From: Octopus vulgaris
Taxonomy: Eukaryota
Length of the DNA stretch: 64,000 nt
Assembly (NCBI GenBank): GCA_951406725.2
Contig: OX597841.1
Span: forward strand, 16,120,001-16,184,000
Direction of reading: 5' to 3'
Below are positions 3,816 through 63,053 of this stretch, piece after piece (positions within the stretch are counted from its first letter, which is position 1; each line of letters begins with the position of its first letter). Both the position numbers and the translations under genes were made by a program. The notes beneath the pieces were generated by a model that was not told where the DNA came from, did not search any database, and saw only the letters and a list, made by a program, of their open reading frames with translations.

Positions 3816-4585
3816 TGTCTATCATCATCATCTCCACCGTAATTATCCTCATCATCCTCACCATCACCTTCATCATCTTTCCTCTTCCCCCCCTTGACCT
3901 CCTCCTCCCACAAACCCTAACCCCCCCAACTTTCTTCACCTTCCGTCTCTCTGTCAGTCGGTCTGTCTGCCTGTCCCCTGTCCTATCCCCTCTGTCCTGT
4001 CCCCTGTCCTTGTCCCCTATCCAATCCTTGTCTTTTCACTCTATCCGGACGTTTATTACATTCTAGCCCCTGAAATTATTTACAAAAGCAACATCCTGAC
4101 CTCCTCTACCACCACCACCACCACCCCCGAGCAAACCCCCCACCACCGCACCCGCCAAACCCCCACTACCACCCACTTCTACCCCCCATCCCACTTCAAG
4201 CACCCCCATCCCCCGCCCAACACCCCCCCCCGAACCTATCCGCAAAAAAAAAATACAAACAAGAAAAAACCTTCATTCAGCTTCTACAAGAACATGAAGC
4301 GAAAACACTCGCAGTAGCAACAACAACAACAACAACAACAGCAACAGCAACAATGAAATTCCCTCCAAAAACAACAACACAAACACATAACCAAAAAAAA
4401 AAAATAGCAGAAAAAAAGAAAAACGAGTTAAAAGCAAAAAAAACACGACACAAAAAAAAACAAAAGATATAAAAAAAAATTACGAAAACAAAATGTAAAT
4501 CACACGAAAAAAATATGTTACTAAACGTGAAGAGAAGGTAGAATAATAATGATAATAATAATAATAGTAATAATAATAATAATAA

Positions 4586-4586
<1 letters not shown>

Positions 4587-4616
<30 letters not shown>

Positions 4617-5223
4617 AAGAAGAAGAAGAAGAAGAAGAAGAAGAAGAAGAAGAAGGAGAAGAAGGAGAAGAAGGAGAAGAAAAGGAAGAAGAAGAAGAAG
4701 ATGAAGAAGAAGGAGGAGGAGGAGGAGAAGAAGAAGAAGAAGAAGAAGAAGAAGAAGAAGAAGAAGAAGATGAAATGAAGAAGAAGGAGGAGGAGGAGGA
4801 GAAGAAGAAGAAGAAGAAGAAGAAGAAGAAGGAGAAGGAAAAGAAGGAGGAGGAGGAGAAGAAGAAGAAGAAGGAGAAGAAGAAGGAGAAGAAGAAGAAG
4901 AAGAAGAAGAAGAAGAAGAAGAAGAAGGAGAAGAAGAAGAAGAAGAAGAAGAAGAAGAAGAAGGAGAAGAAGGAGAAGAAGGAGAAGAAAAGGAAGAAGA
5001 AGAAGAAGATGAAGAAGAAGGAGGAGGAGGAGGAGAAGAAGAAGAAGAAGAAGAAGAAGGAGAAGAAGAAAAAGAAGAAGAAGAAGAAGAAGAAGAAGAA
5101 GACGAGGAAGAAGATTAAGAAGAAGAAGAAGAAGAAGATGAAGAAGAAGAAGAAGGAGGAGAAGAGGAAGAAGAAGAAGAAGAAGAAGAAGAAGAAGAAG
5201 AAGAAGAAGACGAAGAAGAAGAA

Positions 5224-5254
<31 letters not shown>

Positions 5255-5347
5255 AAGAAGGAGGAGGAGGAGGAGGAGAAGAAGAAGAAGAAGAAGAAGA
5301 AGAAGAAGAAGAAGAAGAAGGAGGAGGAGGAGAAGAAGAAGGAGAAG

Positions 5348-5379
<32 letters not shown>

Positions 5380-5545
5380 GAAGGAGGAGGAGGAGAAGAA
5401 GAAGGAGAAGAAGAAGAAGAAGAAGAAGAAGAAGAAGAAGACGAGGAAGAAGAAGAAGAAGACGAGGAAGAAGATTAAGGAGGAGGAAGAAGGAGAAGAA
5501 GCAGACGAGGAAGAAGATTAAGAAGAAGAAGAAGGAGAAGAAGTT
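4587..5545. repeat. (GAA/GGA)n microsatellite
   Basis: Direct reading. Confidence 0.95.
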
Positions 5546-5782
5546 GAAGGAGAAAACAGTCGGAGTCATCTGTTGTAACCAGATTCTCTCTTACACCCGT
5601 ATATAAACATCCGCTCCCTTGTACAGAAACTACAGACAGGGTCCAGGCCTCTGTGCAAAACACCAACAAACCCCTAAAGCATACCCCTTCCCCTAACTCC
5701 AGCCCATCGCACCTCTTATCCGTCCGCCACACCACCACCCCACCGTCTCCTCTAACCCTGTCTCAACACGGCCTATTTCTCA

Positions 5783-5819
<37 letters not shown>

Positions 5820-5975
5820 GTTTGTGTTTTTTTTTAATATTTTTTTACTGTTTGGAAATGCGGTATCCCTAACAAGTTTACGGGAATGGGGTGGTCCGGG
5901 GGTTTGTCTGTTATTCTGCTGTATATAAACAGAACAAAATTATCACTAGACCAGAAAAAAATATTATTATTATTA

Positions 5976-6036
<61 letters not shown>

Positions 6037-6037
<1 letters not shown>

Positions 6038-6589
6038 GAGTGAGAGAGCAGTGCACGCCATCAAAGTGTCACAGGGGTAAAATAAACGAAGCCCAGTATA
6101 CCCATCATGACTACCCGTCTGATAAAGGTACACCAGGCACATGCATCACAACCATATGTGTGCAACATGGTGATCTCATATCAAGATAAACAGAACATGA
6201 CCTTGCAGGTGGGGCCCAGTTAAAATTTTCTTCTGCTCGAGTAGCCAATCCCGCTCAAAAAGTCCCTGAATAAGGGTTGTTTAAGGATGTTGAACGAAAC
6301 ACCCATGTTTCCAGAGGTGAATTATTCAAACCCCAAAGAATCCCTCTCAACACATGGCTATGATGCTCCCCCACTACTTCTGCCCGTGATCAGAGATGCA
6401 CATATCGTCAGCCAATAACGGACATGCTCAACTGGTTAAGGTCAAACAACTGACAAGCAAATCTGTGGTATTGAGCAGAATATTTGCTGTAGCCCATCTT
6501 TTATACCAAGACAAAACAATGTACATGATAACACTTCCAATCAGTTAAGATCAGAAGCCATGAGAGCCACTGCCTGGTACTGCATCAGG
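6037..6589 (-). mobile_element. ~550-bp (AAT)n-embedded non-autonomous retroposon
   Basis: Reverse complement of 53318-53874; (TTA)n on both sides. Confidence 0.8.
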
Positions 6590-6630
6590 TTATTATTATT
6601 ATTATCATCATTTTTATTATTATTTTTATT

Positions 6631-6716
<86 letters not shown>

Positions 6717-6736
6717 CATCATTATTATTATTATTT

Positions 6737-6893
<157 letters not shown>

Positions 6894-7454
6894 TGGTGGA
6901 GACAGCGGTGGTGGTGGTAGTTATTATCGCTGTTGTTACTGTTCTTTGTGAATGGTTACATTTCACAGATCAGTGCACAGGAAAACCATTCGCCACCCCC
7001 TACCTCCGCCAAGAACACCCTACGTATGAAATTAATACGATTTCTTTTATTTATTTATTTTTTTTATTTATTTCCGATTATTTACCATAATTTATTTTTG
7101 GTCCCTTTGCAGCACCGAGAAATTCTTCGAAAATATTTGGACGTCTGCCTCATTACCTGGGAGAGACAGTCTCTTACAACCGTTTACCTGTTTTGACATT
7201 TGTAATATTTACGCGCTACAAATATGGCTGCCTTCCGATGTGACAAGAAGTGGAACTCCCCTCGCCGTGGTAATTCTCAAGTAAACAACCTCGATCGCAA
7301 ATTATTAATTACATATGCAGAACGAGCCTCGAAACCCGATACTTACTCAAATATAATCCGTCACCCACCACCACCGAAAAGAAAAAAAGAAAAAATTACA
7401 AACGATAATTGTAATTATGCATTTATGTATATATAGACGCCATGATAGATCGGT

Positions 7455-8257
<803 letters not shown>

Positions 8258-8434
8258 ACTAAAGTGACAGAGGGTGCTTTTCAGCACCAACATTGCTAGA
8301 TATAGTAGTCAAAGCATCTCTTAGCCACGTGAGAGCATTTTCTAACGTGTCTTGACGCTTATTTCTAGCAACGCTGTTGACGAATATATTTGTTTCCTTT
8401 CAGTTCTAAACTGCAATTAGCCACCTTACTGATT

Positions 8435-8732
<298 letters not shown>

Positions 8733-8803
8733 ACACACACACACACATGTATGTATGTATGTATGTATGTATGTGTGTGTGTATGGCTGTATGTATATGT
8801 ATG

Positions 8804-8863
<60 letters not shown>

Positions 8864-8933
8864 GGAGTAAATACATAAATATGAAACAAGTTGGAAAAAA
8901 GGGTACTCAAATACCAGTGGTAGAGTAATATGT

Positions 8934-9035
8934 TTTATTTAAAGCAGCAGAAAATTCAACAAAACCTTTTACTCTGAGTTTCACGTTGCCGTTCATCGGA
9001 TAGGTTTTGTTGAATTTTCTGCTGCTTTAAATAAA
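8934..9035 (-). ncRNA. Type I hammerhead ribozyme (CCGAUGA core) closed by a ~35-bp stem I
   Basis: Minus strand reads ...ACCUAU-CCGAUGA-ACG GCAA CGU-GAAA-CUCAGAG-UA-AAAGGU... Arms 8934-8967 and 9002-9035 are complementary. Confidence 0.7.
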
Positions 9036-9057
9036 GTATATATATATATAGCCCGGC

Positions 9058-9102
<45 letters not shown>

Positions 9103-9987
9103 ACGGGCTACTTTCAATATCCGTCTACCACATTCACTAACAAAGCTTTGGGCGGCCCGAGGTTATAGCAGAAGACAGAGAGAGAGGGGGAGAGAGAGAG
9201 AGAGAAGGGAAAGAGATGGGGGGAGAAAGTGAAACAAGAGTGAAAAAAAAAAAGACAGGAGAAGGATGAAAGAGAGAGAAAAAGGTGAAATATTTAGAGA
9301 GAAATAACGAATGACAGAGAGAAAAATTGAGAAGAGAGACGAAAGAACGTGATTTTAATATGGCGTTCCATCGGTTGTTGACATTGTTAAAGGAACGGTT
9401 ATTTGAATGAAGCAGACGACCGCTAAAGATGTTTGGATGAGAAGAGTGAGAATGGAAAATGTCGGCTTTATTTTGACAGCTCAGACGACCGACATCAGCT
9501 ACGATTTCAGAAACACATTTGATTGCAGAATACAGCACATTCTTCGCATTGTAGATGTTGTTGTTGCTGTTGTTACTGCTGTTATGGTAGCTGTCGTTGT
9601 TGGTATGTCGTCTTCTTTGTGTTGTTTTAGTCAATGGTTTGCGGCCATACTGGGGCACAACTTCGAAGGATTTTTGAGTCGAATGAATCGATTCCAGCGA
9701 TTGCTTTTTTTTTTGTTTTCTAATTTTAAGACTTCGTACGTATTCTATCGGGCTCTTTTTGCCGAACCGCTACTTAATGTAGACAAGCTACTGGTCGTCA
9801 AATGGTGACTGTAGGGGGATGAGATTGGCAAGCACAAGCACAAACACACACATGAATATACACGCACACACATACACATATATATATATAAACACACATA
9901 TATTCATACACACACATACATACAGCCAGTTATAAATACGTACGTAGATATATACATATATCCATATATTATACGTATACACTAGTG

Positions 9988-10018
<31 letters not shown>

Positions 10019-10494
10019 GGTGATTGAAAAGTAACTCTCAATTTTAAAATACTTATAAATTATTCATTAGGCACAGGAGTGGTCTCGCCTTCGAAACACG
10101 CTTGAGTCTAACTAGCGACAGCTGATGACCGGGGATTTTTCCTTATTTTCTTGTTATAATTTAATGTTTTTCCCGTTTCTACGTCCTGTTGTTGTGTCCT
10201 GTACTCACGTATATTTATTTCTATATACATGTAGATGTAGGTACGTACATATATGTTTGTATGTATGCATATATTTTAATTATTACATTATTGTCTGACA
10301 GCGCCTCGCGTCGGGTTCGTTTTCGATTCGTCGGTTCGTTCCATCTCTTGTCCTCCATTTTAATTTATATATATATATATATATATATATTGATAAAAAC
10401 GATAAGGTAACAAAAGAAAGAAAGAGACCTCGATATTATGTAAATAGAGGAATTTATCTGTAAATATAATATGTGACAATTATTCGGTAGCTAT

Positions 10495-10555
10495 GATAAA
10501 ACTCTGAGTTTCGGATGCCCAGGTTGAAATCCACGCCACCATCTCTTCAGTTATC
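10495..10555 (-). ncRNA. Type I hammerhead ribozyme, mirror copy in the left arm
   Basis: Reverse complement of 10565-10625 with one substitution in the stem II insert. Confidence 0.7.
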
Positions 10556-10564
10556 TGATGGCCG

Positions 10565-10625
10565 GATAACTGAAGAGATGGTGGCGTGGATTTCCACCTG
10601 GGCATCCGAAACTCAGAGTTTTATC
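10565..10625 (+). ncRNA. Type I hammerhead ribozyme (CUGAAGA core), right arm of an inverted repeat
   Basis: GAUAA-CUGAAGA-GAUG...CAUCC-GAAA-CUCAGAG-UU-UUAUC. Confidence 0.7.
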
Positions 10626-10660
10626 TTGGCTACCGAATAATTGTCAAATATTATATTTAC

Positions 10661-10711
<51 letters not shown>

Positions 10712-10716
<5 letters not shown>

Positions 10717-10905
10717 GCAATCAAAAAACACAGAGAAAAAGAAGAAACAAACGTTTAGGACGTTGCACAAGCAATGTATTAATAAGACGCTCAGAGAAGG
10801 AAAAAGAGTAGTTGTTTTACGTTTCGAGCATAGCTCTTTTTCGGAAACAGAAAGAAACAGGAAAGTCCAAGACGAAGAAGGAAAGAAATCGCCAACAATC
10901 ACGTG
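10712..10905 (-). mobile_element. Minimal-HHR element, degenerate core (HHR 10813-10849)
   Basis: Minus strand UGUUU-CCGAAAA-A-GAGC UAU GCUC-GAAA-CG-UA-AAACA. Confidence 0.55.
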
Positions 10906-11398
10906 CAGTTGTGTGTGTGTATGTATGTGTGTGTGTATTGTCTGTGTGTGTATGTGTGTGCTCGTACCGGTTTTGATTGATGAATATATAAACTATGCAC
11001 TTTATAACACCTAGGTATTTCAGAGCTGGAGGTCAGGATTGTGCTTTAGTCGATACGATCATAGACAGGCTGTCATGTTTGTTTGGAGAGCTGATCGATA
11101 GGTCTGATCGTGAAAAATTCGATTAAACGTATCTGATCGCCTTCAATCGATGTAGCGAATAACTATGCCGCTTCAGGCACGTACCACGTCTATGCTTGCG
11201 AGCGCGTGTGTGCCTGTGCACGTGTCTGAGTCGAATGCACGCAAACACACCAACATCGGTTGTCAAGCGACGGTAGTGGGACAAACACAGGCACACAAAC
11301 ACATGGATATATATATATACATGTGTGTGTGTATGTGTGTGTGCGTATAAATATATATAATACATATATATATATATACTACACATATATATATATAA

Positions 11399-11506
<108 letters not shown>

Positions 11507-11699
11507 TATAATACATACATACATATATATATATATATACACGACGGGTTTCTTTCAGTTTCCGTCTTCCAAATCCTCTCACGAAGATTTTATGGCCAGA
11601 GGCTATGGTAGATGACACTTGCCCAAGGTGTTACGCACTGATACTGAACCAGAAACCATGTGGTTGGTATGTACATTCCTGCGCCATGTTGATTCGTTA

Positions 11700-11892
11700 G
11701 TTACTGCACGCATTTTTTTTCTCTCCTTCTTTCTGTGTTTTTTTTCTCTCTGTGTATCTTTCTGTTGAAGAGCGTAGGCTCGAAACGTTAAAGACTTGTT
11801 TTATTTATATTTCCTGAGCGCCATACTAATACAATTGTTTGTTTGTTTTCCACCTGCCTTCGTCTTTTGTCTATTTTCATAAAGCTTCCCGT
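11700..11892 (+). mobile_element. Minimal-HHR element (HHR 11757-11794, CUGUUGA core)
   Basis: UCUUU-CUGUUGA-A-GAGC GUAG GCUC-GAAA-CG-UU-AAAGA; homologous to the 7455 copies. Confidence 0.6.
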
Positions 11893-11909
11893 TATATATA
11901 TATACATAC

Positions 11910-11988
<79 letters not shown>

Positions 11989-12223
11989 TATGTATATAAA
12001 CATTTTCGACCTCACACACTCGTTGCTGCATATTTACCGGTATGCTGCGAATAGCGTGGTGAAGATTACTCCCTCAAAGTGTTGGTTGTTAAAATACCTG
12101 AAAGTAAAGATAAAGGGAGACAACTCACCCGAAATCCCATTCTGGAGTGGTGCACATCGATGTTTCACCATTTTTGTGGCTTATCAACATCAAGTACCCG
12201 AACCGTTGGAAAAGGAGAAATGG

Positions 12224-12257
12224 CTTGACGTTTCGGACACTGGTTCTTCTTCAGAAA
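12224..12257 (-). ncRNA. Minimal hammerhead motif (CUGAAGA core)
   Basis: Minus strand UUU-CUGAAGA-A-GAAC CAGU GUCC-GAAA-CG-UC-AAG; one mismatch in stem II. Confidence 0.5.
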
Positions 12258-12522
12258 GAAAAACAATGTAGAAAGATGGTTGAAAAATACGTGCACACAC
12301 ATACATATGTGTGCATACATACATATATACATGCATATTGACAGACATGCATGCATGCACATATATAATATACATACATACCCACAGAAACACAGAGACA
12401 CACAGACATATATATACACATACAGAGAGAGAGACAGGCAGACAGACAGACAGACAGACAGGCACAGAGACGGAGAGCGAAATAGATAGAAATGTATGTA
12501 TATATATACAGATATATTGTTG

Positions 12523-12558
<36 letters not shown>

Positions 12559-12627
12559 GCAACACTTTTTTTGTATAATAATATGTATATATGTATTTGT
12601 ATGTATGTATGTATGTATCTATGTATA

Positions 12628-12681
<54 letters not shown>

Positions 12682-12689
12682 CATATTTG

Positions 12690-12747
<58 letters not shown>

Positions 12748-12758
12748 CATATATATAC

Positions 12759-12812
<54 letters not shown>

Positions 12813-12896
12813 GTGTGTACATATATATATTTATGTTTGTGTGTACATATATATATTATGTGGCTGTATGTGTGTGTGTGTGTGTTAATATTTATA

Positions 12897-13365
12897 TGAG
12901 CTGGCAGAAAATTTAGCACGCCGGGCGAAATGCTTAGCGGTATTTCGTCTGCCGTTACGTTCTGAGTTCAAATTCCGCCGTGGTCGACTTTGCCTTTCAT
13001 CCTTTCGGGGTCGATAACTTAAGTGTGTGTGTGTGTGTGTGTGTAGGAGGGGAGAATTCGCAATAAAAAAATACAAAAGACCAAGATTAAATGAGTACCA
13101 GTTACGCACTGGGGTCGATATAATCGACTTAATCCGTTTGTCTGTCCTTGTTTGTCCCCTCTCTGTGTTTAGCCCCTTGTGAGTAGTAAAGAAATAGGTA
13201 TTTCGTCTGTCTTTACGTTCTGAGTTCAAATTCCACCGAGGTCGATTTTGCCTTTCATCCTTTCGGGGTGGTCGATAAATTAAGTACCAGTTGCATACTA
13301 GGGTCGATCTAACTGACTGTCCTCCCCACCTCCTCTAACATTTAAGGCCTTGTGCTTAGACTAGA
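12897..13365 (+). mobile_element. SINE family B, head plus ~2 body units
   Basis: GAGCTGGCAGAA...GAGTTCAAATTCC (B-box-like)...GCCTTTCATCCTTTCGGGGTCGATAA. Confidence 0.75.
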
Positions 13366-13395
13366 AAAGACTTATAAATGTAAACGTGCTTGCAA

Positions 13396-13766
13396 ATGTA
13401 TGTATGTATGTATGTATGTTTGTATGTATGTATGTATGTATGTATGTATGTATGTATGTATGTTTGTATGTATGTACGTATGTATGTATGTATGTATGTA
13501 TGTTTGTATGTATGTATGTATGTAATGTATGTATGTATGTATGTATGTATGTATGTTTGTATGTATGTATGTATGTATGTATGTATGTTTGTATGTAATG
13601 TATGTATGTATGTATGTATGTATGTATGTATGTATGTTTGTATGTATGTATGTAATGTATGTATGTATGTATGTATGTATGTATGTATGTATGTATGTAT
13701 GTTTGTATGTATGTATGTATGTAATGTATGTATGTATGTATGTATGTATGTATGTATGTTTGTATG

Positions 13767-13797
<31 letters not shown>

Positions 13798-13831
13798 TGT
13801 ATGTATGTATGTATGTATGTATGTATGTATG

Positions 13832-13862
<31 letters not shown>

Positions 13863-13961
13863 TGTATGTATGTATGTATGTATGTATGTATGTATGTATG
13901 TTTGTATGTATGTATGTATGTATGTAATGTATGTATGTATGTATGTATGTATGTATGTATG

Positions 13962-13998
<37 letters not shown>

Positions 13999-14274
13999 TG
14001 TATGTATGTATGTATGTATGTATGTATGTATGTATGTTTGTATGTATGTATGTATGTATGTATGTATGTATGTATGTATGTATGTATGTATGTATGTATG
14101 TATGTGTGTATGTATGTATGTATGTGTGTATGTATGTATGTATGTATGTATGTATGTATGTATGAATGTGTGTATGTATGTATGTATGTGTGTATGTATG
14201 TATGTATGTAATGTATGTATGTTTGTATGTATGTATGCATGTATGTATGTATGTATGTAATGTATGTATGTATG

Positions 14275-14305
<31 letters not shown>

Positions 14306-15222
14306 TGTATGTATGTATGTATGCATGTATGTAATGTATGTATGTATGTATGTATGTATGTAATGTATGTATGTTTGTATGTGTGTATGCATGTATGTAT
14401 GTATGTATGTATGTATGTATGAATGTATGTATGTATGTATGTAATGTATGTATGTATGTATGTATGTATGTATGTATGTATGTATGTATGTATGTATGTA
14501 TGTATGTATGAATGTGTGTATGTATGTATGTATGTGTGTATGTATGTATGTATGTAATGTATGTATGTTTGTATGTATGTATGCATGTATGTATGTATGT
14601 TTGTATGTATGTTTGTATGTATGTATGTATGTATGTAATGTATGTATGTATGTATGTAATGTATGTATGTATGTATGTATGTATGTATGTATGTATGTTT
14701 GTATGTATGCATGCATGTATGTATGTAATGTATGTAATGTATGTATGTATGTATGTGTGTATGTATGTGTGAATGTATGTATGTATGTATGTATGTATGT
14801 GTGTATGTGTGTATGTATGTGTGTATTCATGTATGTATGTATGTATGTATGTATGTATGTATGTATGTATGTATGTATGTTTGTATGTATGTATGTATGT
14901 ATGTATGTTTGTATGTATGTATGTATGTATGTATGTATGTATGTATGTATGTATGTATGTTTGTATGTATGTTTGTATGTATGTATGTATGTGTGTATGT
15001 ATGTATGTATGTATGTATGTATGTATGTTTGTATGTATGTATGTATGTATGTATGTATGTATGTGTGTATGTATGTAATGTATGTATGTATGTATGTATG
15101 TATGTGTGTATGTATGTTTGTATGTATGTATGTATGTATGTATGTATGTATGTGTGTATGTATGAGGGTATGTATGTATGTATGTTTGTATGTATGTATG
15201 TATGTATGTAATGTATGTATGT
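13396..15222. repeat. ~1.8-kb (TATG)n satellite
   Basis: Direct reading; recurrent TAATG/TTTG variants. Confidence 0.97.
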
Positions 15223-15238
15223 ATATCATTCCATTTCT

Positions 15239-15300
<62 letters not shown>

Positions 15301-15548
15301 ATATAGAGCTGATGAGGAAGAGATTCACAGTTCTAAGAAGCTGCTGAGAGCGGAGGTGGTTTAAAAACAAAAAACAAAAAACCGCGAGCAAAGGAGGCGG
15401 GTGAGGGTGGGGGTTGTTTCGGTCGGGTGTTTTTGCTCTTATCGCTGTCTCTCATCGAACTTATAAATTCGATCCGATGATTAAAAATACACCGACTACT
15501 GATCGGCGCGTTTACGAGCTAGTACATGTGTCTGTATAGATATATATA

Positions 15549-15641
<93 letters not shown>

Positions 15642-15746
15642 GTATATATGCATGTATGTATGTATGTATGTATGTATATACATATATATATATATGTATC
15701 TGTATTTGTATGCATGAATGCGTGTATGTATATATATATATATACG

Positions 15747-15781
<35 letters not shown>

Positions 15782-15874
15782 GTGTATACGTGCAGATTAG
15801 TATGTTTAATTATATTTCAGTCTAGTTGCTGTTGTGGCTGTGGTTATGGGTAGTGGTGTTTGTGTAAGGGACGA

Positions 15875-15943
15875 TGATGGTAGCAGTAGTAGTTGTAGTA
15901 GTTGTTGTTGTTGTTATGGTGGTGGTGGTAGTAGTAGTAGAAT

Positions 15944-16010
<67 letters not shown>

Positions 16011-16772
16011 TATGGTGATGGTGGTGGTGATGGTAGCGGCGGCGGCGGTGATGATCGTAGTAGTAGTAGTAGTTGTTGTTGTTGTTGTTGTTATGGTGGT
16101 GGTAGTGGTAGTAGTAGTAGTAGTTGTAATAATTCTTCTTATGGTGGTTATAATGATGATTTTGCTGTTGTTAGTATTGTTGTCTTTTAGTGGTTCTGGT
16201 GGTGGCGCTGGTGGTGGTAGTGGTAGTGGTGGTGGTGGTGGTGGTGGTGGTGGCGGTGGTGGTGGTGGTGGTGGTGGAGATGGTGGTGGTGGTGGTGGTG
16301 GTGGTGGTGGTGGCGGTGGTGGTGGTGGTGGTGGTGGTGGTGATGGTGGTGGTGGTGGTGGTGGTGGTGGTGGTGGTGGAGATGGTGGTGGTGGAGATGG
16401 TGGTGGTGGTGGTGGTGGTGGTGGTGGTGGTGGTGGTGGTGGTGGTATGGTGGTGGTGGTGGTGGTGGTGGTGGTGGTGGAGATGGTATGGTGGTGGTGG
16501 TGGTGGTGGAGATGGTGGTGGTGGTGGTGGTGGTGGTGGTGGTGGTGGTGGTGGTGGGGGTGGTGGTGGAGATGGTATGGTGGTCGTGGTTGTGGTGGTC
16601 GTGGTCGTTGTCGTGGTCGTGGTGTTGGTGGTGATGGTGGTGGTGGTTGTGATGGGATTCAGTTTTAATTCGTGTTTAATATCGTTATTGTCGGCGGTGT
16701 CAGGCGGTAATGTGATTGGCGGTGTGGTGTAAGGCCAGTGAAGGGGAAGTGCTGCTTCGCCTTGTCTTTTAC

Positions 16773-16830
<58 letters not shown>

Positions 16831-17352
16831 GTTATTCTTTAATTTCATTTTGGAGTTGTGCAGGTTATTGAGAACAGACTGTCTGGGAGAGAATAGAGAT
16901 AGAAAGTGGCGAGGGTAGAAGTGCAGGTGGCGACGGCGTTGGGGGAGTAGGAGGAGGCGGAGGAGGAGGAGAAGAAGAAGAAGAAGAAGAAGAAGAAGAA
17001 GAAGAAGAAGAAGAGAGAGAAGACGAAGAAAAATGTGAAGAAGAAGAAGGAGAAGAAGGAGAAGAAGAAGAAGAAGAAGAGGAAGAAGAAAAAGAAGAAA
17101 GGAAGAAGAAGAAGAAGAAGAAGAAGAAGAAGAAGAAGAAGAAGAAGAAGAAGAAGAAGAAGAAGAAGAAGAAGAAGAAGAAGAAGAAAAGGAAGAAGAA
17201 GAAGAAGAAGAAGAAGAAGAAGGAGAAGAAGAAGAACAAGAAGAAGAACAAGAAGAACAAGAACAAGAAGAAGAAGAAGAAGAAGAAGAAGAAGAAGAAG
17301 AAGAAGAAGAAGAAGAAGAAGAAGAAGAAGAAGAAGAAGAAGAAGAAGAAGA
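15875..17352. repeat. Consecutive (GTA)n, (GGT)n, (ATT)n and (GAA)n microsatellites
   Basis: Direct reading. Confidence 0.93.
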
Positions 17353-17955
17353 AACGAAAGAAATAGGAATCGAAAAATGTGATACTGATGGCGATGATTA
17401 TGATGTCCGGTTCCTTCGTTTCCATGACATTTAGATGACTGATTTCCTGATACTCCATCTGAGCAGAACGCCAGTCCATTGCTGGGGTAACCCAATTACA
17501 GCTGGAGCAACATGAAAATAGAGAATTTTCCTCAAGAATACAACGCACCACCTGGTCCGGTCCGGTCCGGTGCGGCCCGGTGCGGCCCGGTGCGGTCCGG
17601 TTCGATCCCGGGAATCGAAACCGCAACCTTGCGATTACGACACTCCCAATTGAACGAAACGCTAGTCCGCTTCAGGGTTTAACTTCCCAATTAATGTTGG
17701 AACTCCTTCACAGCTGAGTGGACTGAGGCAGCGTTTGGCCCAAAAGTACGACACACCGCCCAGACCAGGAATGGAACTGACGGTCTTACGGTCGTGAGCG
17801 CTGTGCCCTAACTGCTGGGCCACGCGTCTTCACGTCTTCTACAGCAACGATCAAATCTAAAACTTGTGAATAAAACTGTGTGGTGGGGTATAGATACTGA
17901 AGTAGTTCTATCCTGCGTCTAATGGACCGGTTATTCATGTTTCCATGGATAACCG

Positions 17956-18690
17956 GTCCTAAAAGCGACCTAGATCTCAGTTTCCACATCCTAGAAGCGA
18001 CCTAGGTCCCAGTTTCCATTTACTAAAAGCGACCTATGTCTCAGTTTCCATGTCCTAAAAGCGACCTAGATCTCAGTTTCCATGTCTAGAAGCGACCTAG
18101 ATCTCAGCTTCCATGTCCTAGAAGCGACCGAGATCTCAGATTCTATGTCCTAGAAGCGACCTAAATCTCAGTTTCTATGTCCTAGAAGCGACCTAGATCT
18201 CAGCTTCCATGTCCTAAAAGCGACCTAGATCTCAGTTTCTATGTCCTAGAAGCGACCTAGATCTCAGTTTCTATGTCCTAGAAGCGACCTAGATCTCAGC
18301 TTCCATGTCCTAAAAGCGACCCAAATCTCAGTTTCTATGTCCTAGAAGCGACCTAGATCTCAGCTTCCATGTCCTAAAAGCGACCTAGATCTCAGTTTCT
18401 ATGTCCTAGAAGCGACCTAGATCTCAGCTTCCATGTCCTAAAAGCGACCGAGATCTCAGTTTCTATGTCCTAGAAGCGACCTAGATCTCAGCTTCCATGT
18501 CCTAAAAGCGACCTAGATCTCAGTTTCTATGTCCTAAAAGCGACCTAGATCTCAGTTTCTATGTCCTAGAAGCGACCTAGATCTCAGCTTCCATGTCCTA
18601 AAAGCGACCGAGATCTCAGTTTCTATGCCCTAGAAGCGACCTAGATCTCAGTTTCTATGTCCTAGAAGCGACCTAAATCTCAGTTTCCAT
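17956..18690. repeat. 32-bp minisatellite x~23 (CCTARAAGCGACCTAGATCTCAGYTTCYATGT)
   Basis: Period 32 (e.g. 18181 to 18213). Confidence 0.95.
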
Positions 18691-18776
18691 AATAGAAGAC
18701 ACTTGCCCAAGGTGCCACGCAGTGAGACTGAACCCGGAATCATGTGGCTGGTAAGCAAACTAGTTACCATACAGCC

Positions 18777-18830
<54 letters not shown>

Positions 18831-19059
18831 GTTCGTATATGAGCATACACATAAATACATATATTTATGTGTGTGTGTATACATATACACACTCGAAATG
18901 GGGAGTAGACAGCCGACAACTGATGAAGGGTCGTTCTTTATGTTACTAGTCCTGTTTTCCATTTGTTTCTCTCGTTGTTTGCACATTGAACTCATTTGTT
19001 TTCGTATTTCATGTTGTTTACTATTGGTGACGTCCCGTACCCCTATATGCATATATATA

Positions 19060-19455
19060 TGTGGTAAGTAGCTTGCTTACCAACCACACGGTTCCGGGTT
19101 CAGTCCCACTGCGTGGCATCTTGGGCAAGTGTCTTCTGCTATAGCCCCGGGCCGACCAAAGCCTTGTGAGTGGATTTGGTAGACGGAAACTGAAAGAAGC
19201 CTGTCGTATATATGTGTATATATGTATGTATGCGTGTATATATGTTTGTGTGTCTGTGTTTGTCCCCCTAGCATTGCTTGACAACCGACGCTGGTGTGTT
19301 TACGTCCCCGTCATATAGCGGTTCGACAAAAGAGACACCGATAGAATAAGTACTGGGCTTACAAAAGAATAAGTCGAGTTGCTCGATGAAAGGCGGTGCT
19401 CCAGCATGGCCGCAGTCAAATGACTGAAACAAGTAAAAGAGTAAAGAGTAAAAGA

Positions 19456-19456
<1 letters not shown>
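19060..19456 (+). mobile_element. SINE family A
   Basis: Head-to-tail match, ending in (GTAAAAGA)n. Confidence 0.8.
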
Positions 19457-19514
<58 letters not shown>

Positions 19515-19672
19515 TATATATTATTTATATTATATATGTATATATATATAAGCCTCTATATGTCTATGTGTATGTGTGTGTATAAATACATGTATGTAAA
19601 CATGTTTGCATACATAAGCATCTGTGTATGTACGCACACAAATGTTTATAACACCGTCTGTATGTGTGTGTG

Positions 19673-19736
<64 letters not shown>

Positions 19737-28945: not shown

Positions 28946-30140
28946 TATATGTATGTATGTATATATGTATGTATGTATATATGTATGTATGTATTTAATT
29001 TTAGTCTAGACGTTTTCAAAAGATGAAAGTTGTACATAATTTTCATACGCTATTTTGTCAAAAACCACCCAGAAAACTATTTTACTATGTACTAATAAAA
29101 TTTCTAGACGTCTGTATTGACAATTTTTACCTCGTATAACTATCGTAAAATCTGTTGCTATTTGAGTTGACAAACTGTGTTTGGTTGTTTAATATCTGGG
29201 GTGCGCGGCGTGGAAATGTGTATCATAGTTCTTTGTGCTTGTATCATTATTTAGAGGTGACTATAGTTAGATATTTGTCTGTGTGGTGAAAGAAAACGCT
29301 CGGTATCCAGCGATGTGGGTTCAAGTTCAGTCCCGCTATGCGTGGCACCTTTGGTCGGTCCCTTCGGACTATTGCAGCGAAGTGGTCAATGCCCTGCCAG
29401 TGATTTTACAGTAGCGGCACGGTAGAGTGATGGTTTGTTGCCAACTTGATGTGACAGTCCCAGGAAAGGGAAAAATGCTACTGTTATTTAACCCCAGGAA
29501 ACACCGTTTCAAGTTGGCCAAGTGACACAAGCGTTCTGTGTCCTTAAGTTTTCAAACTGGAGAGATAAGCACCTCCACCTAGCAAATATATATATGTATA
29601 CAGTACGTGTGTTCTCAGCCAAAACGGAGAGGTGTACCAACATTCCCAAGTGGCTTATTGAATAACTGTAGATTCCTTCGTACATGAAACCACTGGTTGC
29701 CTTGTTAAGCCACAAAACAGAATATTTTTCCATTAAAATGAGATTTTGAGCACTTGTCACTATTTCATACATAAACACACACATTTATATGTATCACGTA
29801 AACGATTGGGTATTTGGAATCCAGGCAAGTACCTTATTAGCATTCTAATGTAATCCAGATCTGCCCAACCACACTGAATAATATGGAACATACATTGCCT
29901 ACCGCCAATACTTCATAGTGGTCCTATCCCCCGTTGTGATTTGGAGGATGTCATCAGTTGCCCATCCCCATCACATAAGCCATCTGTCATCATTCAAAGC
30001 GAGGTTGTGTTTTGACTGTCGAAGCATGAAGTAGGTTGGGAAATGTCAGCTACCGGAAGTTGACATCTGTTTCGCATTCGTGGACCCAACAACATAACAG
30101 CAACGACACAGACAACAACAACGTTAACAACAATAGCAGC

Positions 30141-35217: not shown

Positions 35218-35290
<73 letters not shown>

Positions 35291-35295
<5 letters not shown>

Positions 35296-35832
35296 GTTGT
35301 ATACTGTCAATCTTACAAGAACGTGACAGTAGGGGGTACACCACCGCTGTATAGCCCTAGGAAGCATCGAACGCCTCCTGATGGCTTTGACACATTTCCC
35401 CTGTGTCCTTATATACATTTACGAAGGGGAGACAAACACCCCCGGCTGCCGAAACTGCATCTAGGGACACCGTGTTTCAGGATCGTTGTCCTTCATCGGC
35501 CTAGAGTAGCAGACACCGGTCAGCTGGTGATATTTGTCTCGACTTCGTATCTGTATATATCTATATTCAGTGAAGTTTATTCACTGGTTATCAAAATAAG
35601 AAATATCGAATTTCTAAATCTCTCGTAGAGACATGTACGGTGGTGGGACGATAGAATGGTTGTATACTGTCAATCTAACAAGAACGTGACAGTAGGGAGT
35701 ACACCACCGCTGTATAGCCCTAGGAAGCATCGAACGCCTCCTGATGGCTTTGACACATTTTTCCCTGTGTCCTTATATACATTTACGAAGGGGAGACAAA
35801 CACCCCCGGCTGCCGTGTTTCAGGATCGCTGT
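35291..35832 (-). mobile_element. Second retrozyme-like element: ~1.5 tandem copies of a 363-bp unit
   Basis: GAATGGTTGTATACTGTC occurs at 35291 and 35654. The second copy has a ~21-bp deletion and ends inside the HHR. Flanked by (AG)n and (TG)n. Confidence 0.7.
35460..35505 (-). ncRNA. Type I hammerhead ribozyme (CCGAUGA core)
   Basis: Minus strand reads UCUAGG-CCGAUGA-AGGA CAACGA UCCU-GAAA-CACGGUG-UC-CCUAGA. Perfect 6-bp stem I and 4-bp stem II; GUC site. Confidence 0.85.
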
Positions 35833-40051: not shown

Positions 40052-40119
<68 letters not shown>

Positions 40120-40286
40120 CATAAGGGACTAAAGCCATCTGAATATGGCTAGGGACAGGGCAGGGTGGTGGGGGTGTTACTGTTGCATTTAGCCCCAGGC
40201 GAACATCGACGTCACCAGAAAGGCTAGACACCGTCACGGTGTCCTTATCCTGCAAAGGGAGGTAATTCCCCGATGAAGCGGAAACA

Positions 40287-40332
40287 CACACGGACCATGG
40301 TTTCAAGGTGTATTGCCTATCGTCGGCGTGTG
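40287..40332 (-). ncRNA. Type I hammerhead ribozyme, unit 1 (CCGACGA core)
   Basis: Minus strand reads CACACG-CCGACGA-U AGG CAAUACA CCU U-GAAA-CCAUGG-UC-CGUGUG. 6-bp stem I, palindromic stem III, GUC site between 40293 and 40292. Confidence 0.85.
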
Positions 40333-40646
40333 GTAGGCCTCCGCTTCCTCGACGAATTCTCACTCTGCAGGATTTTCACATATAGATTTTCAAGCAAAAT
40401 ACATTTGCTGATTTCGAAAATCTGTTCGAAAGCAATAATAATTCTCTAAAAGAGATATAGACAGTAACTGCTCGATAACATAAGGGACTAAAGCCATCTG
40501 AATATGGCTAGGGACAGGGCAGGGTGGTGGGGGTGTTACTGTTGCATTTAGCCCCAGGCGAACATCGACGTCACCAGAAAGGCTAGACACCGTCACGGTG
40601 TCCTTATCCTGCAAAGGGAGGTAATTCCCCGATGAAGCGGAAACCA

Positions 40647-40692
40647 CACACGGACCATGGTTTCAAGGTGTATTGCCTATCGTCGGCGTGTG
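40647..40692 (-). ncRNA. Type I hammerhead ribozyme, unit 2
   Basis: Same motif as 40287-40332, 360 bp further along. Confidence 0.85.
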
Positions 40693-41006
40693 GTAGGCCT
40701 CCGCTTCCTCGACGAACTCTCACTCTGCAGGATTTTCACATATAGATTTTCAAGCAAAATACATTTGCTGATTTCGAAAATCTGTTCGAAAGCAATAATA
40801 ATTCTCTAAAAGAGATATAGACAGTAACTGCTCGATAACATAAGGGACTAAAACCATCTGAATATGGCTAGGGACAGGGCAGGGTGGTGGGGGTGTTACT
40901 GTTGCATTTAGCCCCAGGCGAACATCGACGTCACCAGAAAGGCTAGACACCGTCACGGTGTCCTTATCCTGCAAAGGGAGGTAATTCCCCGATGAAGCGG
41001 AAACCA

Positions 41007-41052
41007 CACACGGACCATGGTTTCAAGGTGTATTGCCTATCGTCGGCGTGTG
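41007..41052 (-). ncRNA. Type I hammerhead ribozyme, unit 3
   Basis: Same motif as 40647-40692, 360 bp further along. Confidence 0.85.
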
Positions 41053-41406
41053 GTAGGCCTCCGCTTCCTCGACGAACTCTCACTCTGCAGGATTTTCACA
41101 TATAGATTTTCAAGCAAAATACATTTGCTGATTTCGAAAATCTGTTCGAAAGCAATAATAATTCTCTAAAAGAGATATAGACAGTAACTGCTCGATAACA
41201 TAAGGGACTATATATATATATATATAAATATATGACGGACTTCTTTCAGTTTCCGTCTACCAAATCCACTCACAAGGCTTTGGTTGGCCTGAGGCTATTG
41301 AAGAAGATACTTGCCCAAGGTGCCACGCAGTGGGACTGAACCCGGAGCCATGTGGTTCATAAGCAAGCTACTTACAACACAGCCACTCCTACGCCTATAT
41401 ATATAT

Positions 41407-62721: not shown

Positions 62722-63053
<332 letters not shown>

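What the first reader, a model, noticed from the sequence alone, without database searches (positions are those of the whole stretch)
40170..40248. Unexplained conserved block shared by both retrozyme-like families at a similar distance from the ribozyme
Seen: GGGGGT...TAGCCCCAGG..AACATCGA...GGCT.GACAC-loop-GTGTC-CTTAT (40170-40248) aligns with GGGGGT...TAGCCCTAGG.AGCATCGA...GGCT..GACAC-loop-GTGTC-CTTAT (35332-35412). It lies ~45-55 nt from the cleavage site in both, and the GACAC/GTGTC stem has different loops. Inference: a second functional RNA module (promoter, RT-recruitment signal, ligation aid or an unrecognised ribozyme). It does not fit the HDV, twister or pistol consensus by eye.
Basis: partly seen in the sequence, partly recalled or inferred. 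Interest (0 to 1): 0.72.

Follow-up and report, generated by a model that had tools for sequence, protein, structure and literature searches.

The report
Conserved RNA fold in hammerhead retrozymes
The block is a pair of predicted RNA hairpins, kept by paired mutations across many related families of a small ribozyme-bearing jumping repeat, and it likely serves as the handle by which a Penelope-type reverse transcriptase binds the RNA and finds the two fixed points where inserted copies end.

Summary
The block is real but must be read on the minus strand, where the hammerheads lie. The two 'families' align over the whole monomer and belong to one superfamily of ~360-nt hammerhead repeats; one exact motif has 4,109 genomic hits (control 1). 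The conserved core (40187-40251; 35349-35415) is two predicted hairpins: 278 of 285 cells pair in 18 lineage rows, with changes on both sides. It is as conserved as the hammerhead (0.72 vs 0.71; flanks 0.52-0.58). Next to it, a family-specific 7-9 bp helix closes over the first of two fixed insertion ends. Of 39 two-armed insertions, 32 use one end each, a Penelope-like footprint. Best reading: a binding and positioning signal for a Penelope-type enzyme (0.5). Against: none of the autonomous Penelope elements sampled carries it, and one makes two ends without it. No support for ribozyme, promoter or SINE/LINE tail. This scan reached the same reading before on other DNA of this genome (e1-8868179, e1-8862755).

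The parts
40187..40251 (-). Core block, family F1, unit 1: hairpin HP1 (40227-40243, 6-bp stem) and hairpin HP2 (40191-40225; 4-bp basal stem, internal loop, upper stem)
   Evidence: Covariance model built without F1 rows matches at 36.7 bits, E about 1e-8; stems
40546..40610 (-). Core block, F1 unit 2
40906..40970 (-). Core block, F1 unit 3
35349..35415 (-). Core block, family F2a: HP1 35389-35407, HP2 35353-35386
   Evidence: 56 bits, E about 1e-14; sequence
35712..35779 (-). Core block, second (5'-truncated, hammerhead-less) F2a unit
29486..29550 (-).
   Evidence: 40.8 bits
40286..40333 (-). Type I hammerhead of F1 unit 1, core CCGACGA, short palindromic helix III, predicted cut after 40293
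   Evidence: pattern and helix check; cleavage untested
40646..40693 (-). Hammerhead of F1 unit 2
41006..41053 (-). Hammerhead of F1 unit 3
35459..35506 (-). Type I hammerhead of F2a, core CCGATGA, predicted cut after 35466
   Evidence: cleavage untested
40535..40542 (-).
40461..40468 (-). 3' strand of that helix, in the 'tail' between end 1 (about 40475) and end 2 (about 40431)
35702..35709 (-). 5' strand of the predicted long-range helix in F2a (also 35339-35346); partner at 35638-35645
40133..40150 (-). Terminal hairpin HP3 of F1, about 17 nt before end 1
35304..35329 (-). Terminal hairpin of F2a before end 1
40116..41210 (-). F1 array: three 360-nt units between TA repeats, finishing at end 1
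35290..35815 (-). F2a insertion: one full unit plus a truncated one, finishing at end 1 next to (AG)n/(TA)n

Best explanation
The block is two predicted RNA hairpins on the hammerhead strand of a non-coding repeat superfamily, and it likely acts as the binding and positioning signal for a Penelope-type reverse transcriptase-endonuclease that would copy the RNA into TA repeats. Shown here: strand, position, conservation, paired changes, two fixed 3' ends, and one end per arm in two-armed insertions. Predicted from covariation: HP1, HP2, a long-range helix starting 5-9 nt after the block that closes over HP3 and end 1. Inferred: the unit is transcribed and cut by its hammerhead (perhaps circularised); an enzyme supplied in trans binds HP1-HP2, whose invariant unpaired letters (G before HP1, first loop G, C and T-R-G of the internal loop) would be contacts; the adjoining helix holds the two start sites in place; each nicked DNA strand primes at one start site.
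For: Block identity among 6 deep lineages is 0.72, hammerhead 0.71, neighbouring segments 0.52-0.58, HP3 0.64. RNAalifold on an unfitted 8-row alignment gives HP1 and HP2, with 5 of 16 pairs changed on both sides (9 of 500 shuffles reach that count, 0 of 500 the covariation score). The model-fitted alignment (39 distinct rows) is 96.6% paired, 9 of 16 pairs with double change, 0 of 500 shuffles. In 18 lineage rows G-U cells outnumber A-C 16 to 4, favouring the hammerhead strand. Copies stop at two fixed sites, 65-75 and about 110-125 nt after the block, in the 7 families examined (few copies for F2c and F2e). 32 of 39 two-armed loci have one of each end, none has two first ends. A 7-9 bp helix joins the linker to the tail in 9 of 9 families in four sequence classes (shuffle P 0.002-0.035 each). 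In the anole Penelope element, reverse transcription starts at two sites flanking the 'tail', and the RNA needed lies between about the hammerhead cut and just past those sites (PMC11167929).
Against: No partner was found. The model found no match in 6 autonomous Penelope-like loci and 1 match in 26 more, lying beyond that element's own hammerhead and TA-flanked end. One abundant autonomous family has two ends (19 and 14 of 42 copies) without the block, so the block is not needed for two-ended insertion in general. Only 9 of 30 generic hammerhead-pattern loci carry it. The distance to the hammerhead cut is just as fixed (50-58 nt), so position alone does not separate RT binding from a processing role. 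Single-sequence folding is weak: z -0.14 for F1, whose minimum-energy fold lacks the basal stem. Related rows can beat shuffles without structure, and A3 is fitted to the model. No binding, probing or expression data.
Confidence: 0.5

Rival explanations
1. The block binds a host protein that stabilises the monomer or circle, helps its ligation, or keeps the hammerhead off in the circle; the fixed ends are set by HP3 and the tail alone.
For: Fixed 50-58 nt from the cut; sequence-level conservation of unpaired letters; absent from the autonomous elements sampled, as a need specific to small RNAs would predict. PMC7229834 (Discussion) argues for host ligases and an unknown block on the hammerhead in circles.
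Against: The block is joined directly to the helix that closes over end 1; no known host motif matched in Rfam.
Confidence: 0.25
2. The block is only one arm of a generally self-paired RNA, kept by descent and by a non-specific need to stay folded (or by hairpin repair during copying), with no specific partner.
For: The monomers are homologous end to end; the hammerhead-flanking stems are self-paired too; retrozyme circles are predicted to be highly self-paired (PMC7229834 passages).
Against: The segments flanking the hammerhead have drifted to 0.52-0.58 identity while the block keeps 0.72; unpaired positions are invariant in 18 of 18 rows.
Confidence: 0.12
3. The block is an internal promoter acting as DNA (polymerase II TATA type or polymerase III box type).
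For: A TATA-like stretch precedes HP1 in the F2a copy, which also has one B-box match.
Against: TATA in 2 of 18 rows, B box in 1 of 18; double changes and G-U bias point to a folded single strand.
Confidence: 0.06
4. The block is an unrecognised self-cleaving ribozyme.
For: Compact, conserved fold with invariant unpaired letters.
Against: No Rfam match over the block at E up to 10; the only conserved helices of 4 bp or more are the three nested ones, none joins loops; both loops vary in length and sequence; 5' truncation points are scattered (read by eye; weak, as they do not cluster at the hammerhead either).
Confidence: 0.04
5. The block is a passively captured SINE or LINE tail.
For: SINE-like and LINE pieces are dense around it.
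Against: In the window the model matches only the six repeat copies; in loci with LINE 3' regions (L024, L053, L091) it matches only repeat copies; passive capture does not explain the double changes.
Confidence: 0.03

Closest known systems
Metazoan non-LTR retrozymes (PMC7229834: passages and Discussion; bioRxiv 10.64898/2026.07.22.740005: parts 1-3 of 5)
   Same: Tandem non-coding units of about 360 nt, each with a type I hammerhead, proposed to be moved by Penelope-like elements; mussel units are 350-390 bp.
   Different: The text I saw describes no covarying non-catalytic module or fixed start sites. Circular RNA and cleavage are shown there, not here. No homology to an autonomous terminal repeat was found here, unlike 24 of 57 Xenopus families.
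RNA template region of the anole Penelope element PAc (PMC11167929: parts 1-2 of 4)
   Same: Order hammerhead, protein-required RNA, two start sites flanking a tail; AT-rich target; both strands extended.
   Different: That region is coding (start of the ORF), its start sites lie in an AC-rich stem-loop, and the tail is 30-40 nt. Here it is non-coding, no reading frame is kept, and the tail is about 44-58 nt. No sequence comparison was made.
3' UTR stem-loops of R2 (PMC11194090: abstract only) and LINE tails borrowed by SINEs (recalled)
   Same: Two stem-loops near the 3' end determine binding and template positioning for target-primed reverse transcription.
   Different: Different enzyme class; one start at the RNA end rather than two internal starts; SINE tails are homologous to their LINE, which was not found here.
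Autonomous Neptune-like Penelope elements of this genome
   Same: TA-repeat targets, inverted truncated arms, two 3' ends, hammerhead-like motif near the end in several.
   Different: AT-rich ends, end 1 about 55 nt after the cut instead of about 175, and no match to the block.

Membership tests
Metazoan non-LTR retrozyme (host element) | Tandem units of about 150-400 nt, each with a type I hammerhead | tested here: met
   360-nt period, 3 units, 3 hammerheads; cores vary (CCGA or TTGA starts)
Metazoan non-LTR retrozyme (host element) | No protein coded | tested here: met
   No Penelope-like coding region continuous with a copy among 234 block-bearing loci of 305; the matches seen are separate nested pieces
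Metazoan non-LTR retrozyme (host element) | Self-cleavage and circular RNA in tissue | not testable with these tools
   Only assembled contigs were on offer
Penelope-mobilised non-autonomous element | 5' truncation, inverted arm, optional tail with two fixed ends, TA target | tested here: met
   features as in PMC8557442 passages
Penelope-mobilised non-autonomous element | 3' end homologous to the terminal repeat of an autonomous element | tested here: inconclusive
   Not found in 32 autonomous-element loci or 30 GIY-YIG loci (motif and blastn test on 1.5 kb); the search tool scores only the top 150 of 4,557-19,721 candidates, so families are unsampled
Retroelement RT-recognition RNA (R2, LINE or PAc type) | Conserved stem-loops near the start of reverse transcription | tested here: met
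Retroelement RT-recognition RNA (R2, LINE or PAc type) | Specific binding by the enzyme, required for priming | not testable with these tools
   needs binding and priming assays
HDV-like, twister, pistol, twister-sister, hatchet ribozymes | Match to the family model | tested here: not met
   0 Rfam matches at gathering score in the window; none of 80 matches at E up to 10 overlaps the block. The hammerheads here were missed too, so Rfam sensitivity is limited
HDV-like, twister, pistol ribozymes | Conserved pseudoknot between loops (feature recalled) | tested here: not met
   No conserved helix uses the loops in 18 rows
Polymerase II/III internal promoter | Conserved TATA or B box (consensus recalled) | tested here: not met
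   2 of 18 and 1 of 18; A box not tested
SINE/LINE tail | Occurs at the 3' end of a SINE or LINE outside the hammerhead repeat | tested here: not met
   no curated repeat library was available

The most novel reading that the evidence does not exclude
The block is a retrozyme-evolved RNA scaffold, not inherited from any autonomous element, that captures a dimeric Penelope enzyme in trans and, with the covarying long-range helix, sets two template start points, one for each nicked DNA strand, much as telomerase RNA sets a template boundary for the related telomerase enzyme.
Probability: 0.2. Interest if true: 0.75.

Novelty: new variant of a known kind. Interest (0 to 1): 0.5.

Why it matters
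How animal retrozymes are recognised and copied back into DNA is open: the papers read infer a Penelope partner from co-occurrence and repeat homology, and one Penelope enzyme has been studied in vitro. A 65-nt module with natural compensatory variants, two mapped start sites and young autonomous candidates with intact frames in the same genome makes the question directly testable. It would also define a small RNA tag for Penelope-driven insertion. The host element is a known kind, and this scan has noted the fold before.

Tried and rejected
Palindromic kissing loop as a dimer signal: the UCGA apex is absent from F3-F6; rejected as a general feature. ATG at the HP2 apex as a start codon: frame not kept between families (read). 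Plus-strand HDV or pistol folds, considered by eye: not supported. Autonomous partner: four searches found none with the block; the nested remnants in L032, L043, L102, L140, L195 are separate insertions. A tail-to-upstream helix in autonomous elements: 8 bp in the main family but P 0.17; not claimed. Other organisms: 0 and 6 pattern hits in metagenomes, 8 in viral contigs; none has the full block (best 24.5 bits without HP1), and four are hairpins beside an A run in microvirus-like contigs (family recalled from the protein's look). Other molluscs could not be searched. Expression: no RNA holder listed on record; contigs cannot show strand or circles, and the 'goes back 359' joint fits tandem DNA equally. 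One search added nothing. One search's profile search returned nothing through an option fault and was redone. Paper searches listed no description of this module; one search found no cephalopod SINE-tail paper. Supplements were not read; those of PMC7229834 (mussel retrozyme sequences and folds) and PMC8557442 (consensus files) may bear on novelty.

Full report
Observation. Both stretches are present as described. A hammerhead scan finds type I motifs on the minus strand of both elements, with predicted cuts after 40293 and 35466, which is 45 and 54 nt from the block. With stringent scoring it is the best local match between the two monomers (score 28; 3 of 1000 shuffles reach it). With two milder scorings the whole monomers align (0 of 1000 each). 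The 'two families' are relatives.

The host element. The genome is 2.8 Gb in 227 contigs; an octopus is likely from the look of its SINEs (recalled, from no call). An exact pattern for HP1 has 1,813 hits (control 0) and one for HP2 has 4,109 (control 1); both are lower bounds. Copies are tandem, 5'-truncated, often with an inverted arm, and sit in TA repeats. These are the features given for Penelope-like elements (PMC8557442 passages). Following weaker profile hits gave 227 copies in 40 clusters at 20% distance, 13 with two or more members. A third family copy lies in the window at 29486-29550. Of 30 loci drawn by a generic hammerhead pattern, 9 carry the block, so it marks one clade of hammerhead repeats.

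Conservation. Among six deep lineages (15 pairs, family majority sequences computed in the script) mean identity is 0.72 for the block, 0.71 for the hammerhead, 0.64 for HP3, and 0.52, 0.58 and 0.56 for the 5' arm, the cut-to-block segment and the linker.

Structure. HP1 is a 6-bp stem that reads GACACA/TGTGTC in most families, GACACC/GGTGTC in F1, GGCACA/TGTGCC in F3 and GACGCA/TGCGTC in F4. The F3-type change recurs in an F2-type copy (L210:3028). The F4-type change recurs in the F1 lineage, through a G-U step in L364 and as a full pair in a loose end of run X19. HP2 has a 4-bp basal stem, an internal loop and an upper stem with a variable apex. RNAalifold on an unfitted alignment of 8 copies returns exactly these three helices; 97.6% of cells pair, 5 of 16 pairs change on both sides (9 of 500 shuffles reach this; 0 of 500 the covariation score). 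MAFFT misaligned the stems when all 16 representatives were given, so I built a model from the 8 rows, none from F1. It finds all six window copies on the minus strand. The fitted alignment of 44 matches (39 distinct) is 96.6% paired with 9 of 16 double changes; slid controls reach at most 57.5%. On 18 rows kept by hand, one per lineage, after dropping 26 duplicates and junction artefacts, 278 of 285 cells pair, G-U outnumbers A-C 16 to 4, and no conserved helix joins the loops. Limits: rows are related, the alignment leans to the model, and single-sequence folding is weak (z -0.14 for F1, -1.6 to -2.3 for four others on this strand and similar on the opposite strand).

Context. Copies stop at two fixed sites 44-58 nt apart in the seven families examined (F1: 23 and 19 of 70, with 21 running on into the next unit; F2a: 25 and 20 at the modal positions of 79). 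End 1 lies 15-19 nt after HP3. In two-armed loci one arm has end 1 and the other end 2 in 17 of 20 (F1), 12 of 14 (F2a) and 3 of 5 (F3); none has end 1 twice (earlier notes seen prompted this count). A 7-9 bp helix pairs the linker just after the block with the tail just after end 1 in 9 of 9 families; its sequence falls in four classes, and cross-class pairings are 3-7 bp. The block thus sits between the hammerhead arm and a closed domain holding end 1.

Mechanism. In the anole Penelope element the enzyme nicks AT-rich DNA on both strands, starts at two internal sites that flank the tail, and needs RNA from +20 to +172, with the hammerhead cut at +26 (PMC11167929). R2 binding depends on two stem-loops (PMC11194090 abstract). 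By analogy the block is most likely the enzyme's handle (0.5). That the fold is under selection is more secure than what selects it.

Results against. Several young autonomous Neptune-like families exist, but the model found nothing in 6 of their loci and one separate insertion in 26 more (one of the 26 had no Penelope protein match). The main family has two ends without the block. The distance to the cut is as fixed as the distance to end 1. A host-protein role in stability, ligation or hammerhead control (0.25) remains; PMC7229834 raises that need. Promoter, ribozyme and SINE/LINE-tail readings failed the tests run.

Distribution. Contigs of runs labelled organisms B, C and D cover the F1 block with few differences. 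Nothing convincing was found in metagenome or viral contigs.

Novelty. The element is a non-LTR retrozyme-type repeat (PMC7229834 passages and Discussion; bioRxiv 10.64898/2026.07.22.740005 parts 1-3 of 5; PMC4209133 part 1 of 4). In cricket hammerhead satellites the non-hammerhead part was less conserved than the ribozyme (PMC2837043 passages), unlike here. Seven paper searches listed no account of this module; PMC6962438 passages only count hammerheads in giant squid. Earlier notes of this scan give the same reading for other copies; they are not independent support. Verdict: real, structured, likely functional; new variant of a known kind; interest 0.5.

Noticed in passing
window 7497-7540 (+), 8640-8683 (-), 62772-62815 (+): Three minimal hammerheads in short TA-flanked elements without the block, each followed by a pyrimidine-rich 3' end; likely ends of another Penelope-like family.
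   Followed up: partly
window 29390-29590 (-): 5'-truncated copy of a third block-bearing family (F5), older than F1 and F2a; best relatives 85-92% identical.
   Followed up: yes
window 40320-40326, 35493-35499; L210, L164: Hammerhead cores vary by family: CCGA start in F1, F2a, F4; TTGA with a matching A in F1b and F3, like the U3-A8 swap in PMC4209133. Activity untested.
   Followed up: no
L123:1762-3915 and G000 matches: Very young Neptune-like Penelope families with intact 784- and 781-residue frames and atypical hammerhead-like ends; candidate enzymes.
   Followed up: partly
L335-L340: A Penelope-like family with a 1008-residue frame, a proline/serine-rich N-terminus, a long CA-rich 3' region and 6.2-kb tandem copies; my hammerhead scan found no motif that I could assign to it.
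   Followed up: partly
L348, L354-L362, L365, L369, L370: Abundant very short foldback hammerhead elements with ends about 27 and 98 nt after the motif, no block.
   Followed up: partly
L115 3' region: In the main autonomous family the tail can pair 8 bp with a segment 218 nt upstream, echoing the long-range helix, but P 0.17.
   Followed up: partly
window about 40442-40458 (-) and matching places in other families: A further small hairpin (TCTC/GAGA stem) lies in the tail before end 2 in most families.
   Followed up: no
L299-L302: Microvirus-like contigs share a hairpin resembling HP2 beside an A run, terminator-like; taken as convergence.
   Followed up: yes
L042, L052, L080, L085, L086: An unidentified repeated ORF with a zinc-knuckle motif (ORF1-like) lies near several copies.
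   Followed up: no
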